Source: an uncultured Bacilli bacterium (GTDB taxonomy: Bacteria; Bacillota_I; Bacilli_A; RFN20; DUOF01). From it: a DNA stretch of 64,000 nt. The stretch lies in assembly GCA_934183255.1 (NCBI GenBank), contig CAKPSD010000001.1, forward strand, positions 517,728 to 581,727, written 5' to 3'. Each line of letters opens with the position of its first letter. Positions within the stretch are counted from its first letter, which is position 1. Shown here piece by piece: positions 29,075 to 33,639 of this stretch. The position numbers were made by a program, and so were the translations under genes. The notes beneath the pieces were generated by a model. It saw only the letters and a program-made list of their open reading frames with translations, searched no databases and was not told the DNA's origin.

Positions 29075-29088
29075 TCTTTTTATTTTTT
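29055..29088. terminator. bidirectional rho-independent terminator
   Basis: AAAGATCAG-AAATTG-CTGATCTTT plus a T-run. The A-run gives a U-tract for the minus strand, so it can also terminate the hydrogenase operon. Confidence 0.6.
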
Positions 29089-30510
29089 CTCTAATATTGA
29101 TATTGCATCAGTAATAGTCTTTTCGTATGCCTCTTTACCATAACTATCTACTTCTGCTTTATTCTTTTCTCCATGAGTTAAGCAACCTGCTCCTCCAATA
29201 CAGCCACCAATACAAGCCATACCTTCAATAAAGTTTGCATCTAATACATTTCTATTCTTTTTCATTAAAGCAATCTTACATGCTTCAATTCCATCGCATA
29301 CACATGGTTTTAATTCAAAATCTGTGATATTTTGTTCCTTTAAACCTTCAACTACAGCATCGGCTAATCCACCTGATCTAGCAAATATTCTTCCATAGTA
29401 TGAAGCATTATCTAATACATTTTCACTTAATGCAGTAATATCTATATCTTTACTATCAAATAAAGCTTGCAACTCTTCAAAAGTAATTGCAGAATCTACA
29501 TAAGGCTTAACACTATCTTTTAATATTTCTTTTTTCTTAGCAGTACATGGGCCAATAAAAACTACTTTACAGTTTTCTTCATGCTCTTTTAAATATTTAG
29601 AAATTGTAGCCATTGGAGATAAATTGTGTGAAACATGCTCTTTTAAAGATGGAAAATTCTTTTCTAAATAATCAACAAAAGCAGGGCAACAAGAACTAGT
29701 TAAAAAACCTTTTTCTGCAAGTTCCTTAGATTCTTTTTGCGCAACCATATCTGCTCCTAAAGCTGCTTCAATTACTGTATAGAAACCTAGCTCTTTTAAA
29801 CCAGTTATTACTTGACCTAATTTAGCATAAGTAAATTGGCTTGAAATAGAAGGTGCTACAATTGCATATACTTTATAATTTTTATTATCATTGCTATTCT
29901 TTATGATATCTATAACATTTAAAATATATGACCTATCTGTAATTGCTCCAAATGGGCATTGATAAACACATGCACCACATGATATACACTTTTCATTATC
30001 AATACAAGCTTGTTTATCTTCACCCATTGAAATAGCATTTACTTTACATGCACTTTCACATGGTCTTTTATAGTTATGAATTGCGCTATAAGGGCAAACT
30101 CTAGCACACATGCCACACTCTTTACATTTACTCTTATCAATATGAGCAGTATGGTTACTATCAAAGGTTATTGCACCAAACTTACAGGCACCTTCACATC
30201 TATGAGCAATACACCCTCTACAAGAGTTAGTAACCTCATAACCACCTACTGGACATTCATCACAAGCAATATCTATTACTTGAATAACATTGCTATTATC
30301 TTTATATCCACCCATAGCCATTTTTACTCTTTCCAGTAAAATTGCTCTTTCCTTATATACACAACATCTCATTGTAGGCTTTTTACCTGGAACAATAGTC
30401 ATTGGTATATCTATTGCAGTTTCTGGAAGTGTTCCTTTCCATGCTTCACTAGCTACTTCTCTAAGAACTTGATATTTCAACTCTTGTACTTTTGTATCAA
30501 ATTTTCTCAT
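29080..30510 (-). CDS. [FeFe]-hydrogenase homologue with multi-FeS N-terminus (H-cluster motifs TSSCCPAF / GPCTAKKKE / [12 protein letters not shown])
   Basis: N-terminal ferredoxin-like Cys clusters. All three H-cluster motifs L1, L2 and L3 are present, but L2 has Gly in place of the canonical Met. Confidence 0.8.
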   Translation of the reverse strand: [476 protein letters not shown]

Positions 30511-30521
30511 TTATTTACCTC

Positions 30522-31694: not shown

Positions 31695-33363
31695 CGGAAA
31701 TAGACTCCTTTAATTTAGTTAACGCTATCTTTGTTTCTGCAGCAGTCTCTCCAAGTAAAGATGCTATTTCTTGAACTATTCTCATTTGCTTTTCTACTAC
31801 TTTATCTGCTACTTCTATTGTTTGTTTTGAAATATTTTCTTTTTTAACTTTTTCATCTTGAACATCGCTTATATCTCTTAAAATACATACTAACATTTGA
31901 TTATTTTCATCATATACAACTGTTTCTTCAACATACTTATTATATTCTGCTAAATAAGCTCTTTTATTATTTATACCACGCTTTGTTTCTAATACTTTTA
32001 AGAAAATATCTGGATCTAATATTCTAACTACTTGATCACCTAAAATATCATTTACATTATTAATTCTTAACATACTTTTAGCAGCATTATTAATTTGCTG
32101 AACTTCTAATTTATCATTTAACACTATTAATCCATTTGGGGTATTATTAACAATACAATCAGAAAAACTTTCAGCTTTCTCTTTTAAATAAGGAAGACAC
32201 ATTGATATCTCTGCTTTACCATTATAAATAGCTATTGCTTTTTCTCTGCATGTATTATATCCACAAGATCCACAATTAAGTTCATCTTCTTTTTTAATCT
32301 TTCCCATTTTCTTCATTATTTCTCTTATCTCATCTTCACTAGGATTAAGTCTTTTGCAATCAATTTGCTCAAAATGTTTTCTTATTTCTAAAGAGTCTGG
32401 CTGCTCTACACTAAAATCTTTCTTTCCAGCATAGTTTGCTACATACATATAGTCTTTAACTATTGCATGATGATACTTTTCCATTACTGGTCCACCTATA
32501 CAACTATTAGTGCACGCTGACATCTCTATAAAGCATTTATGTATATTACCACTTTCTATATCTTTAAGTGCTGCTATACAATTTTCTACCCCATCGATTG
32601 CCATATATGTATATTCACTATTTTTAGTATCCATTGTTTTTAAAATTCCCCCAGTAGTTGGAAAGAATCTTGCCTTACTATTATCATTTTTATCTATATT
32701 TTTAACTAACTCTATATTTTCTTCTTTTAACCAGTTAGAAAGTTCTTCAAAAGTCAAAACAGCATCTACTATTCCCTCATAATGACTAGCTTCATCTTTT
32801 TTAGAAACACAAGGGCCTATAAATACAACTTTTGCATTAGGATTACGCTTTTTAATATCACTAGCATGTGCTTGCATTGGTGACATAACATCTGCTAAAT
32901 AAGCTATTTCTTTTGGAAAATATTTTTGTATTAATAAATTAATAGAATGACAACAAGAAGAAATAACAATATCTCTTTTTTCCTCTTTAAGTAATCTCTC
33001 ATACTCATTTTTCACAATAGTAGCACCTATCGCTGTTTCTTCTACTTCTGCAAATCCTAACTTCTTTAAAGACTTTCGCATTTCATTTATTCCTACTCCA
33101 TCATAATTAGCAATGAAAGAAGGCGCTAAACTTACATATACAGGAACATTAGATTGAATTAAAACTTTTGCTTTCTCAACTTCGCTTGTTATTTGTTTGG
33201 CATTTTGTGGACATACAACAAAACATTGGCCACATAAAATACATTCATCATCATTTATATGAGCTTGATTAGCAGAAAAACGAATTGCCTTAACAGGGCA
33301 ATGCCTTATGCACTTATAACAATTTTTACAATTTGATTTTTTTAGTGTTAAAAAACTAGCCAT
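31687..33363 (-). CDS. hydS: putative sensory [FeFe]-hydrogenase (HydS-type: 2x[4Fe4S] + H-domain + Cys4 + PAS)
   Basis: Two CxxCxxCxxxCP ferredoxin motifs. H-domain motifs SSCCHS (L1), GPCVSKKDE (L2, Met to Gly) and EMSACTNSC (L3, Met to Ser). An extra CGSCGYNTC…C four-Cys site, then a PAS-like domain and a coiled-coil tail. Confidence 0.8.
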   Translation of the reverse strand: [558 protein letters not shown]

Positions 33364-33396
33364 TACCTATACCTCTTTTCTATTAATAAGCATTAT

Positions 33397-33639
33397 TTAA
33401 ATTCTAGTAAGAACCTCTTTTTTAAAGAATTCTTCTACAGTAGTTGGACTAACTGAATAAAATTCACCATTAACAGTTACACAAACACCTTGCTGACATT
33501 TTCCCATACAAAAAGTACCAGAAAGTTCAACCCTATCTTTAACATTATTAGTATCTATTAAATTTTGTAAACTCTCTACTACTTGTCTTGATCCTTTAAT
33601 ATGGCATGAACTTCCTATACACACTACTACCTTAACCAT
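33397..33639 (-). CDS. thioredoxin-like [2Fe-2S] ferredoxin (NuoE/HndA-like)
   Basis: 80 aa with Cys7, Cys12, Cys44 and Cys48 (CIGSSCHIKG…CMGKCQQG). First gene of the hydS operon. Confidence 0.7.
   Translation of the reverse strand: MVKVVVCIGSSCHIKGSRQVVESLQNLIDTNNVKDRVELSGTFCMGKCQQGVCVTVNGEFYSVSPTTVEEFFKKEVLTRI

What the first reader, a model, noticed from the sequence alone, without database searches (positions are those of the whole stretch)
29080..33639. Four-gene putative H2-sensing signalling operon: [2Fe-2S] ferredoxin, HydS-type PAS hydrogenase, PP2C phosphatase and a second hydrogenase homologue
Operon structure: the genes are tightly packed on the minus strand. The hydS stop overlaps the phosphatase start by 8 nt, the other gaps are 11 and 33 nt, and a terminator closes the operon at 29055-29088.

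HydS homologue: it carries two N-terminal [4Fe-4S] motifs, an H-cluster domain with the substitutions reported for sensory (group C) [FeFe]-hydrogenases, an extra four-Cys site and a PAS domain. The substitutions are L2 MPC to GPC, L3 MAC to SAC and L1 TSCCP to SSCCH.

Why it matters: coupling such a protein to a SpoIIE/RsbU-type PP2C phosphatase suggests H2-dependent control of a partner-switching or phospho-relay output. That linkage has been proposed from genome context in a few anaerobes, but as far as I know it has not been shown biochemically. The second H-cluster protein has mixed motifs (GPC in L2 but a canonical EGMACxGGC in L3), so it may be a catalytic or reporter partner.
Basis: partly seen in the sequence, partly recalled or inferred. 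Interest (0 to 1): 0.8.

Follow-up and report, generated by a model that had tools for sequence, protein, structure and literature searches.

The report
Hydrogen-sensor, phosphatase and hydrogenase operon, already known
This is a real four-gene operon that pairs a hydrogen-sensor-like hydrogenase and a protein phosphatase with a working hydrogen-producing hydrogenase, but it is a close copy of a gene cluster already studied in Ruminococcus albus and Thermoanaerobacterium, so it is ordinary rather than new.

Summary
All four minus-strand genes exist exactly as described. They are a thioredoxin-like [2Fe-2S] ferredoxin, a HydS-type [FeFe]-hydrogenase (two [4Fe-4S] motifs, H-domain, extra 4-Cys cluster, PAS), a SpoIIE/PP2C phosphatase with all metal-binding Asp residues, and a second [FeFe]-hydrogenase. 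The overlap, the gaps and the terminator are also confirmed.

The operon is a direct orthologue of the Ruminococcus albus 7 pRUMAL01 cluster Fd–HydS–PP2C–HydA2, at 66–73% amino-acid identity with the same gene order and the same motifs. By published description it also matches hfsABCD of Thermoanaerobacterium.

The HydS–phosphatase link is already published. The R. albus cluster is about 111-fold H2-responsive, and hfs genes have been deleted one by one.

The "mixed-motif" second hydrogenase is an ordinary group B ferredoxin-dependent enzyme. It passes NCBIfam TIGR04105 and keeps an intact proton pathway.

Nothing supports partner switching. No STAS or anti-sigma kinase gene was found in the window or in 80 related loci. 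Many relatives instead carry an APH-like kinase, AdhE and Rex, which this window lacks.

This locus adds nothing that R. albus does not already offer.

Minor unannotated features are a conserved about 165-aa C-terminal domain on the phosphatase and a nearly invariant helical tail on HydS.

The parts
33803..33840 (-). Hairpin (12-bp stem) followed by a U-run, upstream of the operon. It is most likely the terminator of the preceding 112-aa ORF and so marks the 5' limit of the operon.
   Evidence: dG -13.8 kcal/mol, z -3.8. The functional assignment is inferred.
33397..33639 (-). Gene 1: thioredoxin-like [2Fe-2S] ferredoxin of the HfsA / RaFd1 type, 80 aa. The Cys ligands follow C7-x4-C12 ... C44-x3-C48.
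   Evidence: PF01257 36.3 bits against 24.8. It is 65.8% identical to R. albus Fd1. An AGGAGG ribosome-binding site precedes it.
31687..33363 (-). Gene 2: HydS, a putative sensory [FeFe]-hydrogenase of group C (M2f architecture), 558 aa.
   Evidence: It is 68.5% identical over its full length to R. albus HydS.
33199..33342 (-). HydS aa 8-55: two CxxCxxCxxxC [4Fe-4S] motifs (C12/15/18/22 and C41/44/47/51).
   Evidence: All eight Cys are invariant in 34 orthologues, except C22 at 90% or more.
32488..33144 (-). HydS aa 74-292: H-cluster domain. The ligands are C138, C185, C284 and C288. The position equivalent to CpI C299 is kept as C137. CpI M353 is replaced by G183 and M497 by S282. In the proton pathway, E279 is replaced by Y121, E282 by L124 and S319 by A157.
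   Evidence: PF02906 170.5 bits. Residues were mapped through the alignments, so the proton-pathway mapping is alignment-inferred.
32191..32280 (-). HydS aa 362-391: C-terminal four-Cys [4Fe-4S] site (C364, C367, C372, C389).
   Evidence: PF04060 41.4 bits against 23. The Cys are invariant.
31864..32157 (-). HydS aa about 403-500: PAS domain.
   Evidence: The AlphaFold model has low confidence here, so the fold is not verified.
31690..31863 (-). HydS aa 501-558: helical tail. Residues 526-553 are invariant in 34 orthologues and it has no Pfam family.
31023..31694 (-). Gene 3, aa 1-224: SpoIIE/PP2C (PPM) phosphatase domain with metal-binding D23, D41, D156, D211 and D212.
30525..31022 (-). Gene 3, aa 225-390: conserved alpha/beta (Rossmann-like) C-terminal domain of unknown function. 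Conserved motifs are GPP, HIVCGGTTS, GVDLVTEG and NPAHQNP.
29080..30510 (-). Gene 4: group B ferredoxin-dependent [FeFe]-hydrogenase (HydA2 / HfsD type), 476 aa. H-cluster ligands are C275, C322, C433 and C437. The proton pathway is kept (C274, E279 and E282 equivalents, S294; R286 is replaced by K).
   Evidence: NCBIfam TIGR04105 564.6 bits against 450. Aligned to CpI. It is 72.9% identical to R. albus HydA2.
29054..29081 (.). Bidirectional intrinsic terminator shared with the convergent 106-aa ORF.

Best explanation
What it is (shown). This is an hfs-type or HydS-HydA2-type operon. It is orthologous to the R. albus 7 pRUMAL01 genes Fd-HydS-PP2C-HydA2, and by published description it corresponds to hfsABCD of Thermoanaerobacterium. 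The gene content, the orthology, the intact cofactor and metal ligands, and the translational coupling of HydS and PP2C are all shown here.

Evidence from relatives (literature). In R. albus the cluster is strongly switched on when H2 accumulates. In Thermoanaerobacterium, deleting hfsA or hfsB, but not hfsC or hfsD, raises adhE expression and ethanol yield.

How it most likely works (inferred).
1. HydS binds and slowly turns over H2 at an H-cluster. That cluster lacks the canonical proton-relay glutamates and the M353 and M497 methionines.
2. The small [2Fe-2S] ferredoxin serves as its electron partner, via the [4Fe-4S] chain.
3. The H2 or redox state is passed through the C-terminal cluster, PAS and helical-tail region to the PP2C phosphatase. 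The two are made in 1:1 amounts from an overlapping gene.
4. The phosphatase changes the phosphorylation of an unknown target. That in turn sets the expression or activity of the co-encoded ferredoxin-dependent hydrogenase (gene 4). In relatives it would also affect AdhE.
5. The cell thereby switches between acetate plus H2 and more reduced products as H2 builds up.
For: Domains and cut-offs.

Orthology to R. albus: identities are 65.8% (Fd), 68.5% (HydS), 73.3% (PP2C) and 72.9% (hydrogenase), with the same order and identical L1, L2 and L3 motifs.

Conservation of the pairing: HydS sits immediately upstream of the PP2C and overlaps it in 75 of 75 related loci with enough sequence. At least one ferredoxin gene is present in 68 of 74, and the group B hydrogenase lies downstream in 48 of 66. 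The same minimal four-gene form occurs in Monoglobus pectinilyticus.

HydS looks sensory: G183 and S282 occupy the M353 and M497 positions, and the proton-relay residues are replaced. This matches the published pattern for sensory enzymes (PMC10055695).

Gene 4 looks catalytic: the proton pathway is intact.

A source of reduced ferredoxin is nearby: PFOR lies 8 kb away at 17230-20781.

Literature: PMC6776011 reports 111-fold regulation and describes the phosphatase subunit. PMC10838669 describes the R. albus system. PMC5707799, PMC11837493 and PMC12288451 report the hfs genetics.
Against: No step from H2 binding to phosphatase output has been shown biochemically in any organism.

In the related group D enzyme TamHydS, the C-terminal cluster did not change redox state under H2 (PMC13104023). 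That argues against a simple redox relay through that cluster.

The window has none of the kinase-like gene, AdhE or Rex that accompany the cluster in R. albus and in many relatives. The phosphatase's counter-kinase and target are therefore not visible here.

About a quarter of related loci lack the downstream hydrogenase, so that gene cannot be the only output.

The PAS fold could not be confirmed by structure prediction (pLDDT below 50 there).

A 40% identical PP2C with the same C-terminal domain sits away from any hydrogenase in Acetoanaerobium.

The T. saccharolyticum Hfs sequences could not be compared directly.
Confidence: 0.8

Rival explanations
1. HydS reports the redox state of ferredoxin or of the cell rather than H2 itself. 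The dedicated [2Fe-2S] ferredoxin and the Fe-S chain equilibrate the protein with the ferredoxin pool. H2 would matter only indirectly. The rest of the pathway (PAS, then PP2C, then output) is the same as in the best explanation.
For: A ferredoxin gene is almost always co-encoded, often in two copies. Rex, an NADH/NAD+ sensor, is adjacent in R. albus and in 16 of 52 related loci. HfsB is described as possibly responding to redox potential (PMC11837493). The TamHydS C-terminal cluster did not respond to H2 (PMC13104023).
Against: All four H-cluster ligands are strictly conserved, which would not be needed for a plain Fe-S redox sensor. R. albus shows the same fermentation stoichiometries in co-culture as at low H2 (PMC6776011).
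Confidence: 0.2
2. The four proteins are subunits of one multi-subunit hydrogenase, as the 'Hfs' subunit naming implies. HydS would be a second catalytic or electron-transfer subunit rather than a sensor, and the PP2C a structural or regulatory subunit.
For: HydS keeps the proton-transfer Cys equivalent to CpI C299 (C137). Only about 17% of sensory enzymes do so (PMC10055695). The genes are translationally coupled. PMC13277313 suggests that HfsABC could form a functional hydrogenase without HfsD.
Against: The E279, E282 and S319 equivalents are replaced, and M353 and M497 are replaced. A PAS domain and an intact phosphatase have no role in catalysis. Deleting hfsB raised hydrogenase activity rather than lowering it (PMC5707799). 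Reintroducing and overexpressing hfsD alone in a T. thermosaccharolyticum delta-hfsABCD strain gave an ethanol profile comparable to the hfsB-deletion strains, so HfsD acts without the other three hfs genes (PMC11837493). About a quarter of loci lack the second hydrogenase.
Confidence: 0.1
3. The PP2C drives a SpoIIE/RsbU-style partner-switching module: it dephosphorylates a STAS anti-anti-sigma factor, which then controls a sigma factor.
For: The closest solved relatives of the phosphatase domain are SpoIIE and RsbU/RsbX-type enzymes.
Against: No STAS or anti-sigma kinase gene was found among 38 window ORFs scanned against Pfam. None forms a recurrent cluster near the operon in 80 related loci. 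The recurrent kinase-like neighbour is an APH/RIO-type phosphotransferase (PF01636), not an RsbW/SpoIIAB-type kinase.
Confidence: 0.05

Closest known systems
Ruminococcus albus 7 pRUMAL01 cluster LysR-Rex-AdhE-phosphotransferase-Fd-Fd-HydS-PP2C-HydA2 (Zheng et al. 2014, cited in PMC10838669; Greening et al. 2019, PMC6776011)
   Same: The order Fd-HydS-PP2C-hydrogenase is the same, as is the HydS length of 558 aa. HydS and PP2C overlap by 8 nt in both. The L1, L2 and L3 motifs are identical. Identities are 65.8%, 68.5%, 73.3% and 72.9%.
   Different: The window has one ferredoxin gene, not two. It has no adjacent APH-like phosphotransferase, AdhE, Rex or LysR anywhere in its 64 kb. It lies in a chromosomal housekeeping context, not on a megaplasmid.
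hfsABCD of Thermoanaerobacterium saccharolyticum and T. thermosaccharolyticum (Shaw 2009; PMC5707799, PMC11837493, PMC12288451)
   Same: It is also a four-gene operon. By published description it encodes a small HfsA, an HfsB [FeFe]-hydrogenase with PAS, an HfsC serine phosphatase and an HfsD ferredoxin-linked hydrogenase similar to RaHydA2. HfsB is stated to be homologous to RaHydS.
   Different: The hfs hosts are thermophiles. PMC11837493 says HfsA aligns poorly with known proteins, whereas gene 1 here clearly matches PF01257.
TmHydS (Thermotoga maritima), the spectroscopically characterised group C (M2f) sensory [FeFe]-hydrogenase (PMC10055695, PMC13104023)
   Same: The architecture is the same: two [4Fe-4S] clusters, H-domain, a C-terminal [4Fe-4S] cluster and PAS. 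Both have Gly at CpI M353 and Ser at M497.
   Different: TmHydS has Ala at the CpI C299 position (A131), whereas the window protein keeps Cys (C137). No sequence comparison was made here.
TamHydS (Thermoanaerobacter mathranii), group D (M2e) (PMC13104023)
   Same: Both have the N-terminal clusters, the H-domain and the atypical C-terminal [4Fe-4S] cluster.
   Different: Group D lacks the PAS domain. The window protein has about 165 further residues after the 4-Cys site, comprising PAS and a helical tail.
Group B [FeFe]-hydrogenases (CpIII, TsHfsD; PMC8924675, PMC10055695)
   Same: Gene 4 passes TIGR04105 (FeFe_hydrog_B1). It has Gly at CpI M353, as CpIII does, together with canonical TSCCP and MACxxGC motifs.
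   Different: None found. Note that PMC6776011 calls the R. albus orthologue 'group A1', so the literature is not consistent on its group.
[NiFe] regulatory hydrogenase system HoxBC-HoxJ-HoxA of Ralstonia/Cupriavidus (cited in PMC5707799, PMC6776011)
   Same: The logic is the same: a slow, sensor-type hydrogenase controls the expression of energy-converting hydrogenases through protein phosphorylation.
   Different: The proteins are unrelated: a [NiFe] enzyme with a histidine kinase and response regulator, against a [FeFe] enzyme with PAS and a PP2C phosphatase. The resemblance is analogy only.

Membership tests
[FeFe]-hydrogenase group C (M2f) 'HydS' | Four Cys ligands of the H-cluster | tested here: met
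   C138, C185, C284 and C288 are present and invariant in 34 orthologues. PF02906 scores 170.5 bits.
[FeFe]-hydrogenase group C (M2f) 'HydS' | Two N-terminal [4Fe-4S] motifs | tested here: met
   CxxCxxCxxxC occurs at residues 12-22 and 41-51. Fer4 families match.
[FeFe]-hydrogenase group C (M2f) 'HydS' | Atypical C-terminal four-Cys [4Fe-4S] site | tested here: met
   PF04060 scores 41.4 bits against a cut-off of 23. The site uses C364, C367, C372 and C389.
[FeFe]-hydrogenase group C (M2f) 'HydS' | PAS domain after the C-terminal cluster (this separates group C from group D) | tested here: met
   The window sequence alone is 1.8 bits under the Pfam cut-off (PAS_8 20.0 against 21.8). However, 34 of 34 orthologues match PF00989 (best E 5.5e-7). 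NCBIfam matches the PAS segments of PhoR, MASE3-PAS-HK and AtoS (E 1.1e-5). The only PDB profile hits below E = 1 are PAS domains. The fold was not confirmed because the AF2 model is poor there.
[FeFe]-hydrogenase group C (M2f) 'HydS' | Small residues in place of CpI M353 and M497 | tested here: met
   G183 and S282 occupy these positions, as G177 and S267 do in TmHydS (PMC10055695).
[FeFe]-hydrogenase group C (M2f) 'HydS' | H2 binding with low turnover, and an actual sensor function | not testable with these tools
   This needs maturation, FTIR/EPR and activity assays.
R. albus HydS-HydA2 / hfsABCD-type operon | Gene order small Fe-S protein, HydS(PAS), PP2C, ferredoxin-dependent hydrogenase, all on one strand | tested here: met
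R. albus HydS-HydA2 / hfsABCD-type operon | Sequence orthology of each product to the R. albus proteins | tested here: met
   Identities are 65.8%, 68.5%, 73.3% and 72.9%, full-length for the three large proteins.
R. albus HydS-HydA2 / hfsABCD-type operon | Sequence orthology to T. saccharolyticum HfsA-D (ACU11594-97) | not tested
The link rests on published statements that HfsB is homologous to RaHydS and HfsD to RaHydA2 (PMC5707799, PMC11837493, PMC13277313).
R. albus HydS-HydA2 / hfsABCD-type operon | Extended R. albus form with a second Fd, an APH-like phosphotransferase, AdhE and Rex adjacent | tested here: not met
   None of these is found in the 64-kb window by tblastn. The window has the minimal four-gene form also seen in Monoglobus and described for hfsABCD.
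R. albus HydS-HydA2 / hfsABCD-type operon | H2-responsive expression | not testable with these tools
   Known only for R. albus (PMC6776011).
[FeFe]-hydrogenase group B | Passes the curated group B model, with H-cluster ligands and proton pathway intact | tested here: met
   TIGR04105 scores 564.6 against 450, while the group A model TIGR02512 scores 161.8 against 405.95. The ligands are C275, C322, C433 and C437. The C299, E279, E282 and S319 equivalents are kept.
PPM/PP2C (SpoIIE-type) phosphatase | PP2C fold and conserved metal-binding Asp residues | tested here: met
   [not shown]
Partner-switching module (RsbU/SpoIIE, STAS, anti-sigma kinase) | A STAS anti-anti-sigma gene and an RsbW/SpoIIAB-type kinase gene associated with the phosphatase | tested here: not met
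   They are absent from 38 scanned window ORFs and from the recurrent neighbours in 80 loci. The rest of the genome was not seen.
Thioredoxin-like [2Fe-2S] ferredoxin (NuoE/HydC-like) | Family model match and the Cx4C...Cx3C ligand pattern | tested here: met
   PF01257 scores 36.3 against 24.8. The ligands are C7, C12, C44 and C48.

The most novel reading that the evidence does not exclude
HydS and the PP2C may form a self-contained two-protein H2-to-phosphatase switch. In this reading, the unannotated Rossmann-like C-terminal domain of the phosphatase (aa 225-390) receives the signal. It would do so either by docking the invariant helical tail of HydS or by binding a small ligand. The substrate would be a metabolic enzyme such as the co-encoded hydrogenase itself, rather than a transcription factor. 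This kinase-less minimal operon would then be a direct post-translational control of H2 production.
Probability: 0.12. Interest if true: 0.55.

Novelty: new member of a known kind. Interest (0 to 1): 0.25.

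Why it matters
H2 sensing by [FeFe]-type sensors is thought to decide whether gut and rumen fermenters make acetate plus H2 or more reduced products. 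That choice feeds into methane output and into ethanol-yield engineering. The signalling chemistry after H2 binding is still unsolved.

This locus shows that the Fd-HydS-PP2C-hydrogenase module is very strongly conserved: 70-80% identity for the phosphatase across many uncultured gut and rumen bacteria. It is also widespread in a minimal, kinase-less form.

It does not open a route to the question that the genetically tractable Thermoanaerobacterium, or the already characterised R. albus system, does not already offer.

Tried and rejected
1. AlphaFold model of HydS built from 34 orthologues. Mean pLDDT was 61 and below 50 across the PAS region, so it could not confirm the PAS fold and was not used for a fold search.
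2. Fold search against afdb50, intended to find named Thermoanaerobacterium or Thermotoga relatives. The library was not available.
4. Zheng et al. 2014 (PMC4248817) is not held in the library, so its content is cited only through later papers.
5. Search for a Rex operator (TTGTTAA-N4-TTAACAA, up to 3 mismatches). The only hit in the upstream region (33816-33833) has 3 mismatches, which I judge uninformative in DNA this AT-rich. Across the whole window the pattern was nonetheless commoner than in shuffled sequence (46 hits against a mean of 34, with no shuffle reaching 46).
6. Rfam scan of the whole window. It found only tRNAs and no riboswitch or leader near the operon.
7. The sigma-70 promoter scan gave fewer hits than shuffled sequence, and none convincing between the upstream hairpin and gene 1. 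The promoter is not located.
8. Pfam and NCBIfam at permissive thresholds on the PP2C C-terminal domain and the HydS tail found nothing meaningful.
9. I considered that the roughly 162-aa hits to the C-terminal domain are stand-alone proteins. They all start M-x-GPP at the domain boundary. However, they could be split or mis-started gene calls, and this was not resolved.

Full report
**Observation**

The same genes are called on independent assemblies that carry the identical phosphatase.

HydS and the phosphatase overlap by 8 nt (ATGAATGA), with an AAGGAG ribosome-binding site inside the end of hydS. The phosphatase stop codon lies within the AGGAGG site of gene 4, 11 nt before its start. The ferredoxin-HydS gap is 33 nt.

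The hairpin at 29054-29081 folds at -16.9 kcal/mol (z -5.7). It is flanked by A and T runs, so it can terminate both the operon and the convergent 106-aa ORF. A second hairpin with a U-run at 33803-33840 probably ends the preceding ORF and bounds the operon upstream. No convincing promoter was located.

**Domains**

- Gene 1 is a thioredoxin-like [2Fe-2S] ferredoxin (PF01257, 36.3 bits against 24.8) with a Cx4C...Cx3C ligand pattern.
- Gene 2 has two ferredoxin-type [4Fe-4S] motifs, the H-cluster domain (170.5 bits), the PF04060 four-Cys site (41.4 bits against 23) and weak PAS matches.
- Gene 3 has a SpoIIE/PP2C domain at aa 32-220 (51 bits against 25). About 165 further residues match no Pfam or NCBIfam family.
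- Gene 4 passes NCBI's curated model for group B 'monomeric [FeFe] hydrogenase' (TIGR04105, 564.6 bits against 450). It fails the group A model (161.8 against 405.95).

1. Cys ligands. They are present in both H-domains and invariant in 34 HydS orthologues.
2. PAS. The window sequence is 1.8 bits below Pfam's cut-off. Three other lines support the call:
   - All 34 orthologues (73-98% identical) match PF00989, best E 5.5e-7.
   - NCBIfam aligns residues 403-515 to the PAS segments of PhoR, a MASE3-PAS kinase and AtoS (E 1.1e-5 to 2e-3).
   - A profile of the region searched against all PDB sequences returns only three hits below E = 1, all cytoplasmic PAS domains of CitA and DcuS.
   The AlphaFold model was too poor here to confirm the fold. 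I accept the PAS call at sequence-family level.

**What it is**

The literature describes hfsABCD of Thermoanaerobacterium as a small HfsA, an HfsB [FeFe]-hydrogenase with PAS, an HfsC serine phosphatase and an HfsD ferredoxin-linked hydrogenase similar to R. albus HydA2. HfsB is stated to be homologous to R. albus HydS (PMC5707799, PMC11837493, PMC13277313).

R. albus hydS and hydA2 lie on plasmid pRUMAL01 (PMC10838669). That allowed a direct test. A protein search of the plasmid collection with the window's phosphatase hit pRUMAL01 at 73.3% identity.

The annotated region there reads LysR, Rex, AdhE, phosphotransferase, Fd, Fd, HydS (558 aa), SpoIIE phosphatase (389 aa), then a 478-aa hydrogenase. 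Pairwise identities to the window proteins are 65.8% (Fd1), 68.5% (HydS, full length), 73.3% (PP2C) and 72.9% (HydA2). The motifs are the same: ISSCCH, GPCVSKK and EMSACxxSC in HydS, and TSSCCP, GPCTAKK and EGMACIGGC in HydA2. The window therefore holds an orthologue of a published, experimentally examined cluster.

**What is already known about that cluster**

In R. albus the cluster was about 111-fold lower in co-culture with an H2 consumer. [quoted passage not shown]

In T. saccharolyticum, deleting hfsA or hfsB raised ethanol yield about 1.8-fold and raised adhE expression. Deleting hfsC or hfsD did not. Deleting hfsB raised hydrogenase activity (PMC5707799). Reintroducing and overexpressing hfsD alone in a T. 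thermosaccharolyticum strain lacking hfsABCD gave an ethanol profile comparable to strains lacking only hfsB, so HfsD acts without the other three genes (PMC11837493).

HydDB-based annotation has already noted a group C3 and a group B hydrogenase two genes apart in Vallitalea (PMC6163223). The mechanism is still called unknown in 2026 (PMC13277313).

**The second hydrogenase**

Its 'mixed' motifs are the group B norm. CpIII, a group B enzyme, also has Gly at CpI M353 (PMC10055695). Alignment to CpI shows that the proton-transfer residues are kept: C299, E279, E282 and S319, with R286 replaced by Lys. It is 72.9% identical to RaHydA2, which the literature read here describes as a ferredoxin-dependent H2-producing hydrogenase (PMC10838669).

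HydS differs. It keeps the C299 equivalent (C137), a minority state reported at about 17% of sensory enzymes (PMC10055695). It replaces E279 with Y121, E282 with L124 and S319 with A157 (alignment-inferred). It has G183 and S282 at the M353 and M497 positions, as TmHydS does.

**Conservation**

Eighty genome loci encoding a phosphatase at least 70% identical to the window's were retrieved. Nearly all come from uncultured gut and rumen Clostridia-type MAGs. Among loci with enough flanking sequence:

| Feature | Loci with it / loci with enough flanking sequence |
|---|---|
| HydS directly upstream of the phosphatase, overlapping it | 75 / 75 |
| At least one ferredoxin gene | 68 / 74 |
| Two ferredoxin genes | 53 / 74 |
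| Group B hydrogenase downstream | 48 / 66 |
| 249-aa APH/RIO-like phosphotransferase | 41 / 67 |
| AdhE | 24 / 53 |
| Rex | 16 / 52 |

The identities of the phosphotransferase, LysR and Rex clusters were checked against Pfam.

The invariant core is therefore HydS plus PP2C. The window has the minimal form. It has one ferredoxin gene, and tblastn finds no phosphotransferase, AdhE, Rex or LysR anywhere in its 64 kb. The same minimal form occurs in Monoglobus pectinilyticus, with PP2C 57% and HydS 54% identical.

The window's wider context is ordinary chromosomal housekeeping: MutS, MutL, MiaA, ProRS, LysRS, PFOR, pyrophosphatase, Ddl, a Mur ligase and RNase J. No STAS, anti-sigma kinase, Ser/Thr kinase or GGDEF gene was found among 38 ORFs scanned against Pfam.

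**Mechanism**

Shown here:
- the gene content and the orthology;
- intact cofactor and metal ligands;
- a disrupted proton relay in HydS against an intact one in gene 4;
- translational coupling of HydS and the PP2C;
- strict co-occurrence of that pair.

Taken from the literature on relatives: H2-responsive expression, and the opposite phenotypes of hfsA/B and hfsC/D deletions.

Inferred: HydS reads H2, with the [2Fe-2S] ferredoxin as its electron partner. It passes the signal through its C-terminal cluster, PAS and helical-tail region to the phosphatase. The phosphatase's unknown substrate then sets the level or activity of the ferredoxin-dependent hydrogenase, and in relatives AdhE.

Rival readings are redox sensing rather than H2 sensing, a structural multi-subunit hydrogenase, and partner switching. 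They are scored in the rivals section. The last has no contextual support.

**Features not described in the papers I read**

2. A 40% identical full-length homologue in Acetoanaerobium sits next to genes I judged to be CoA-transferase subunits (from their translations only) and not next to a hydrogenase. The domain is therefore not tied exclusively to HydS.
3. HydS residues 526-553 are invariant across 34 orthologues and predicted helical. This tail is a candidate interaction surface.

**Verdict**

The system is already known and this copy is a close orthologue. Interest is low to moderate. The remaining value lies in the still-open biochemical question, which this locus does not make easier to test.

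Noticed in passing
[not shown]
   Followed up: partly
window 31690-31863 (-), HydS aa 501-558: The helical tail after the PAS domain is the most conserved part of HydS. Residues 526-553 ([28 protein letters not shown]) are invariant in 34 orthologues and nearly identical in R. albus. It has no family match. It may be the surface that contacts the phosphatase.
   Followed up: partly
L002 2361-10601; L083 (R. albus pRUMAL01) 1613-11623: Many relatives carry an extended cluster: LysR, Rex, AdhE, a 249-aa APH/RIO-like phosphotransferase, two tandem [2Fe-2S] ferredoxins, HydS, PP2C and hydrogenase. The window has only one ferredoxin gene, and none of the other genes anywhere in its 64 kb. The phosphotransferase is the obvious candidate counter-kinase.
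   Followed up: partly
for example L021, L029, L034, L036, L043-L046, L048, L058, L059: In 18 of 66 related loci with enough downstream sequence, no group B hydrogenase follows the phosphatase. That hydrogenase therefore cannot be the only output of the HydS-PP2C pair.
   Followed up: partly
L084 6992-8173 (Acetoanaerobium noterae): A full-length homologue of the phosphatase (393 aa, 40% identical, same C-terminal motifs) lies next to two genes that I took, from reading their translations only, to be CoA-transferase subunits. No HydS or hydrogenase is nearby. The record is labelled a plasmid but is 2.63 Mb long, so it is probably a chromosome.
   Followed up: no
L001-L080 record titles: Phosphatases 70-80% identical to the window's sit in MAGs labelled Bacilli, Christensenellaceae, Lachnospiraceae, Ruminococcus and also Bacteroidaceae, Acidiphilium and Proteobacteria. 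The last three labels are probably binning or naming errors. The closest relative (L001, 98%) is labelled 'uncultured Bacilli bacterium' from a Hadza gut sample. The window's GC content is only about 27%.
   Followed up: no
window 17230-20781 (-) and 16700-17230 (-): A pyruvate:ferredoxin oxidoreductase (1183 aa) directly followed by an inorganic pyrophosphatase lies 8 kb downstream of the operon. PFOR is the likely source of the reduced ferredoxin used by gene 4.
   Followed up: no
window 58912-59752 (-), 42361-42647 (-), 54797-54867 (-), 28520-28595 (-): There are tRNA gene arrays: ten tRNAs in 58.9-59.8 kb and three in 42.4-42.6 kb. A single tRNA lies at 54.8 kb, and a tRNA-Lys(CTT) lies about 480 nt downstream of the operon's terminator, with its own terminator at 28419-28447.
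   Followed up: no
window 27599-28186 (-): Two adjacent small, very basic ORFs (109 and 83 aa, rich in Lys, Arg and Asn) have no family match. They are also called as genes on other assemblies (L081).
   Followed up: no
literature: The R. albus HydA2 orthologue is called 'group A1' in PMC6776011. Its Thermoanaerobacterium counterpart HfsD is called group B in PMC8924675. The window's gene passes NCBI's group B model and fails the group A model.
   Followed up: partly
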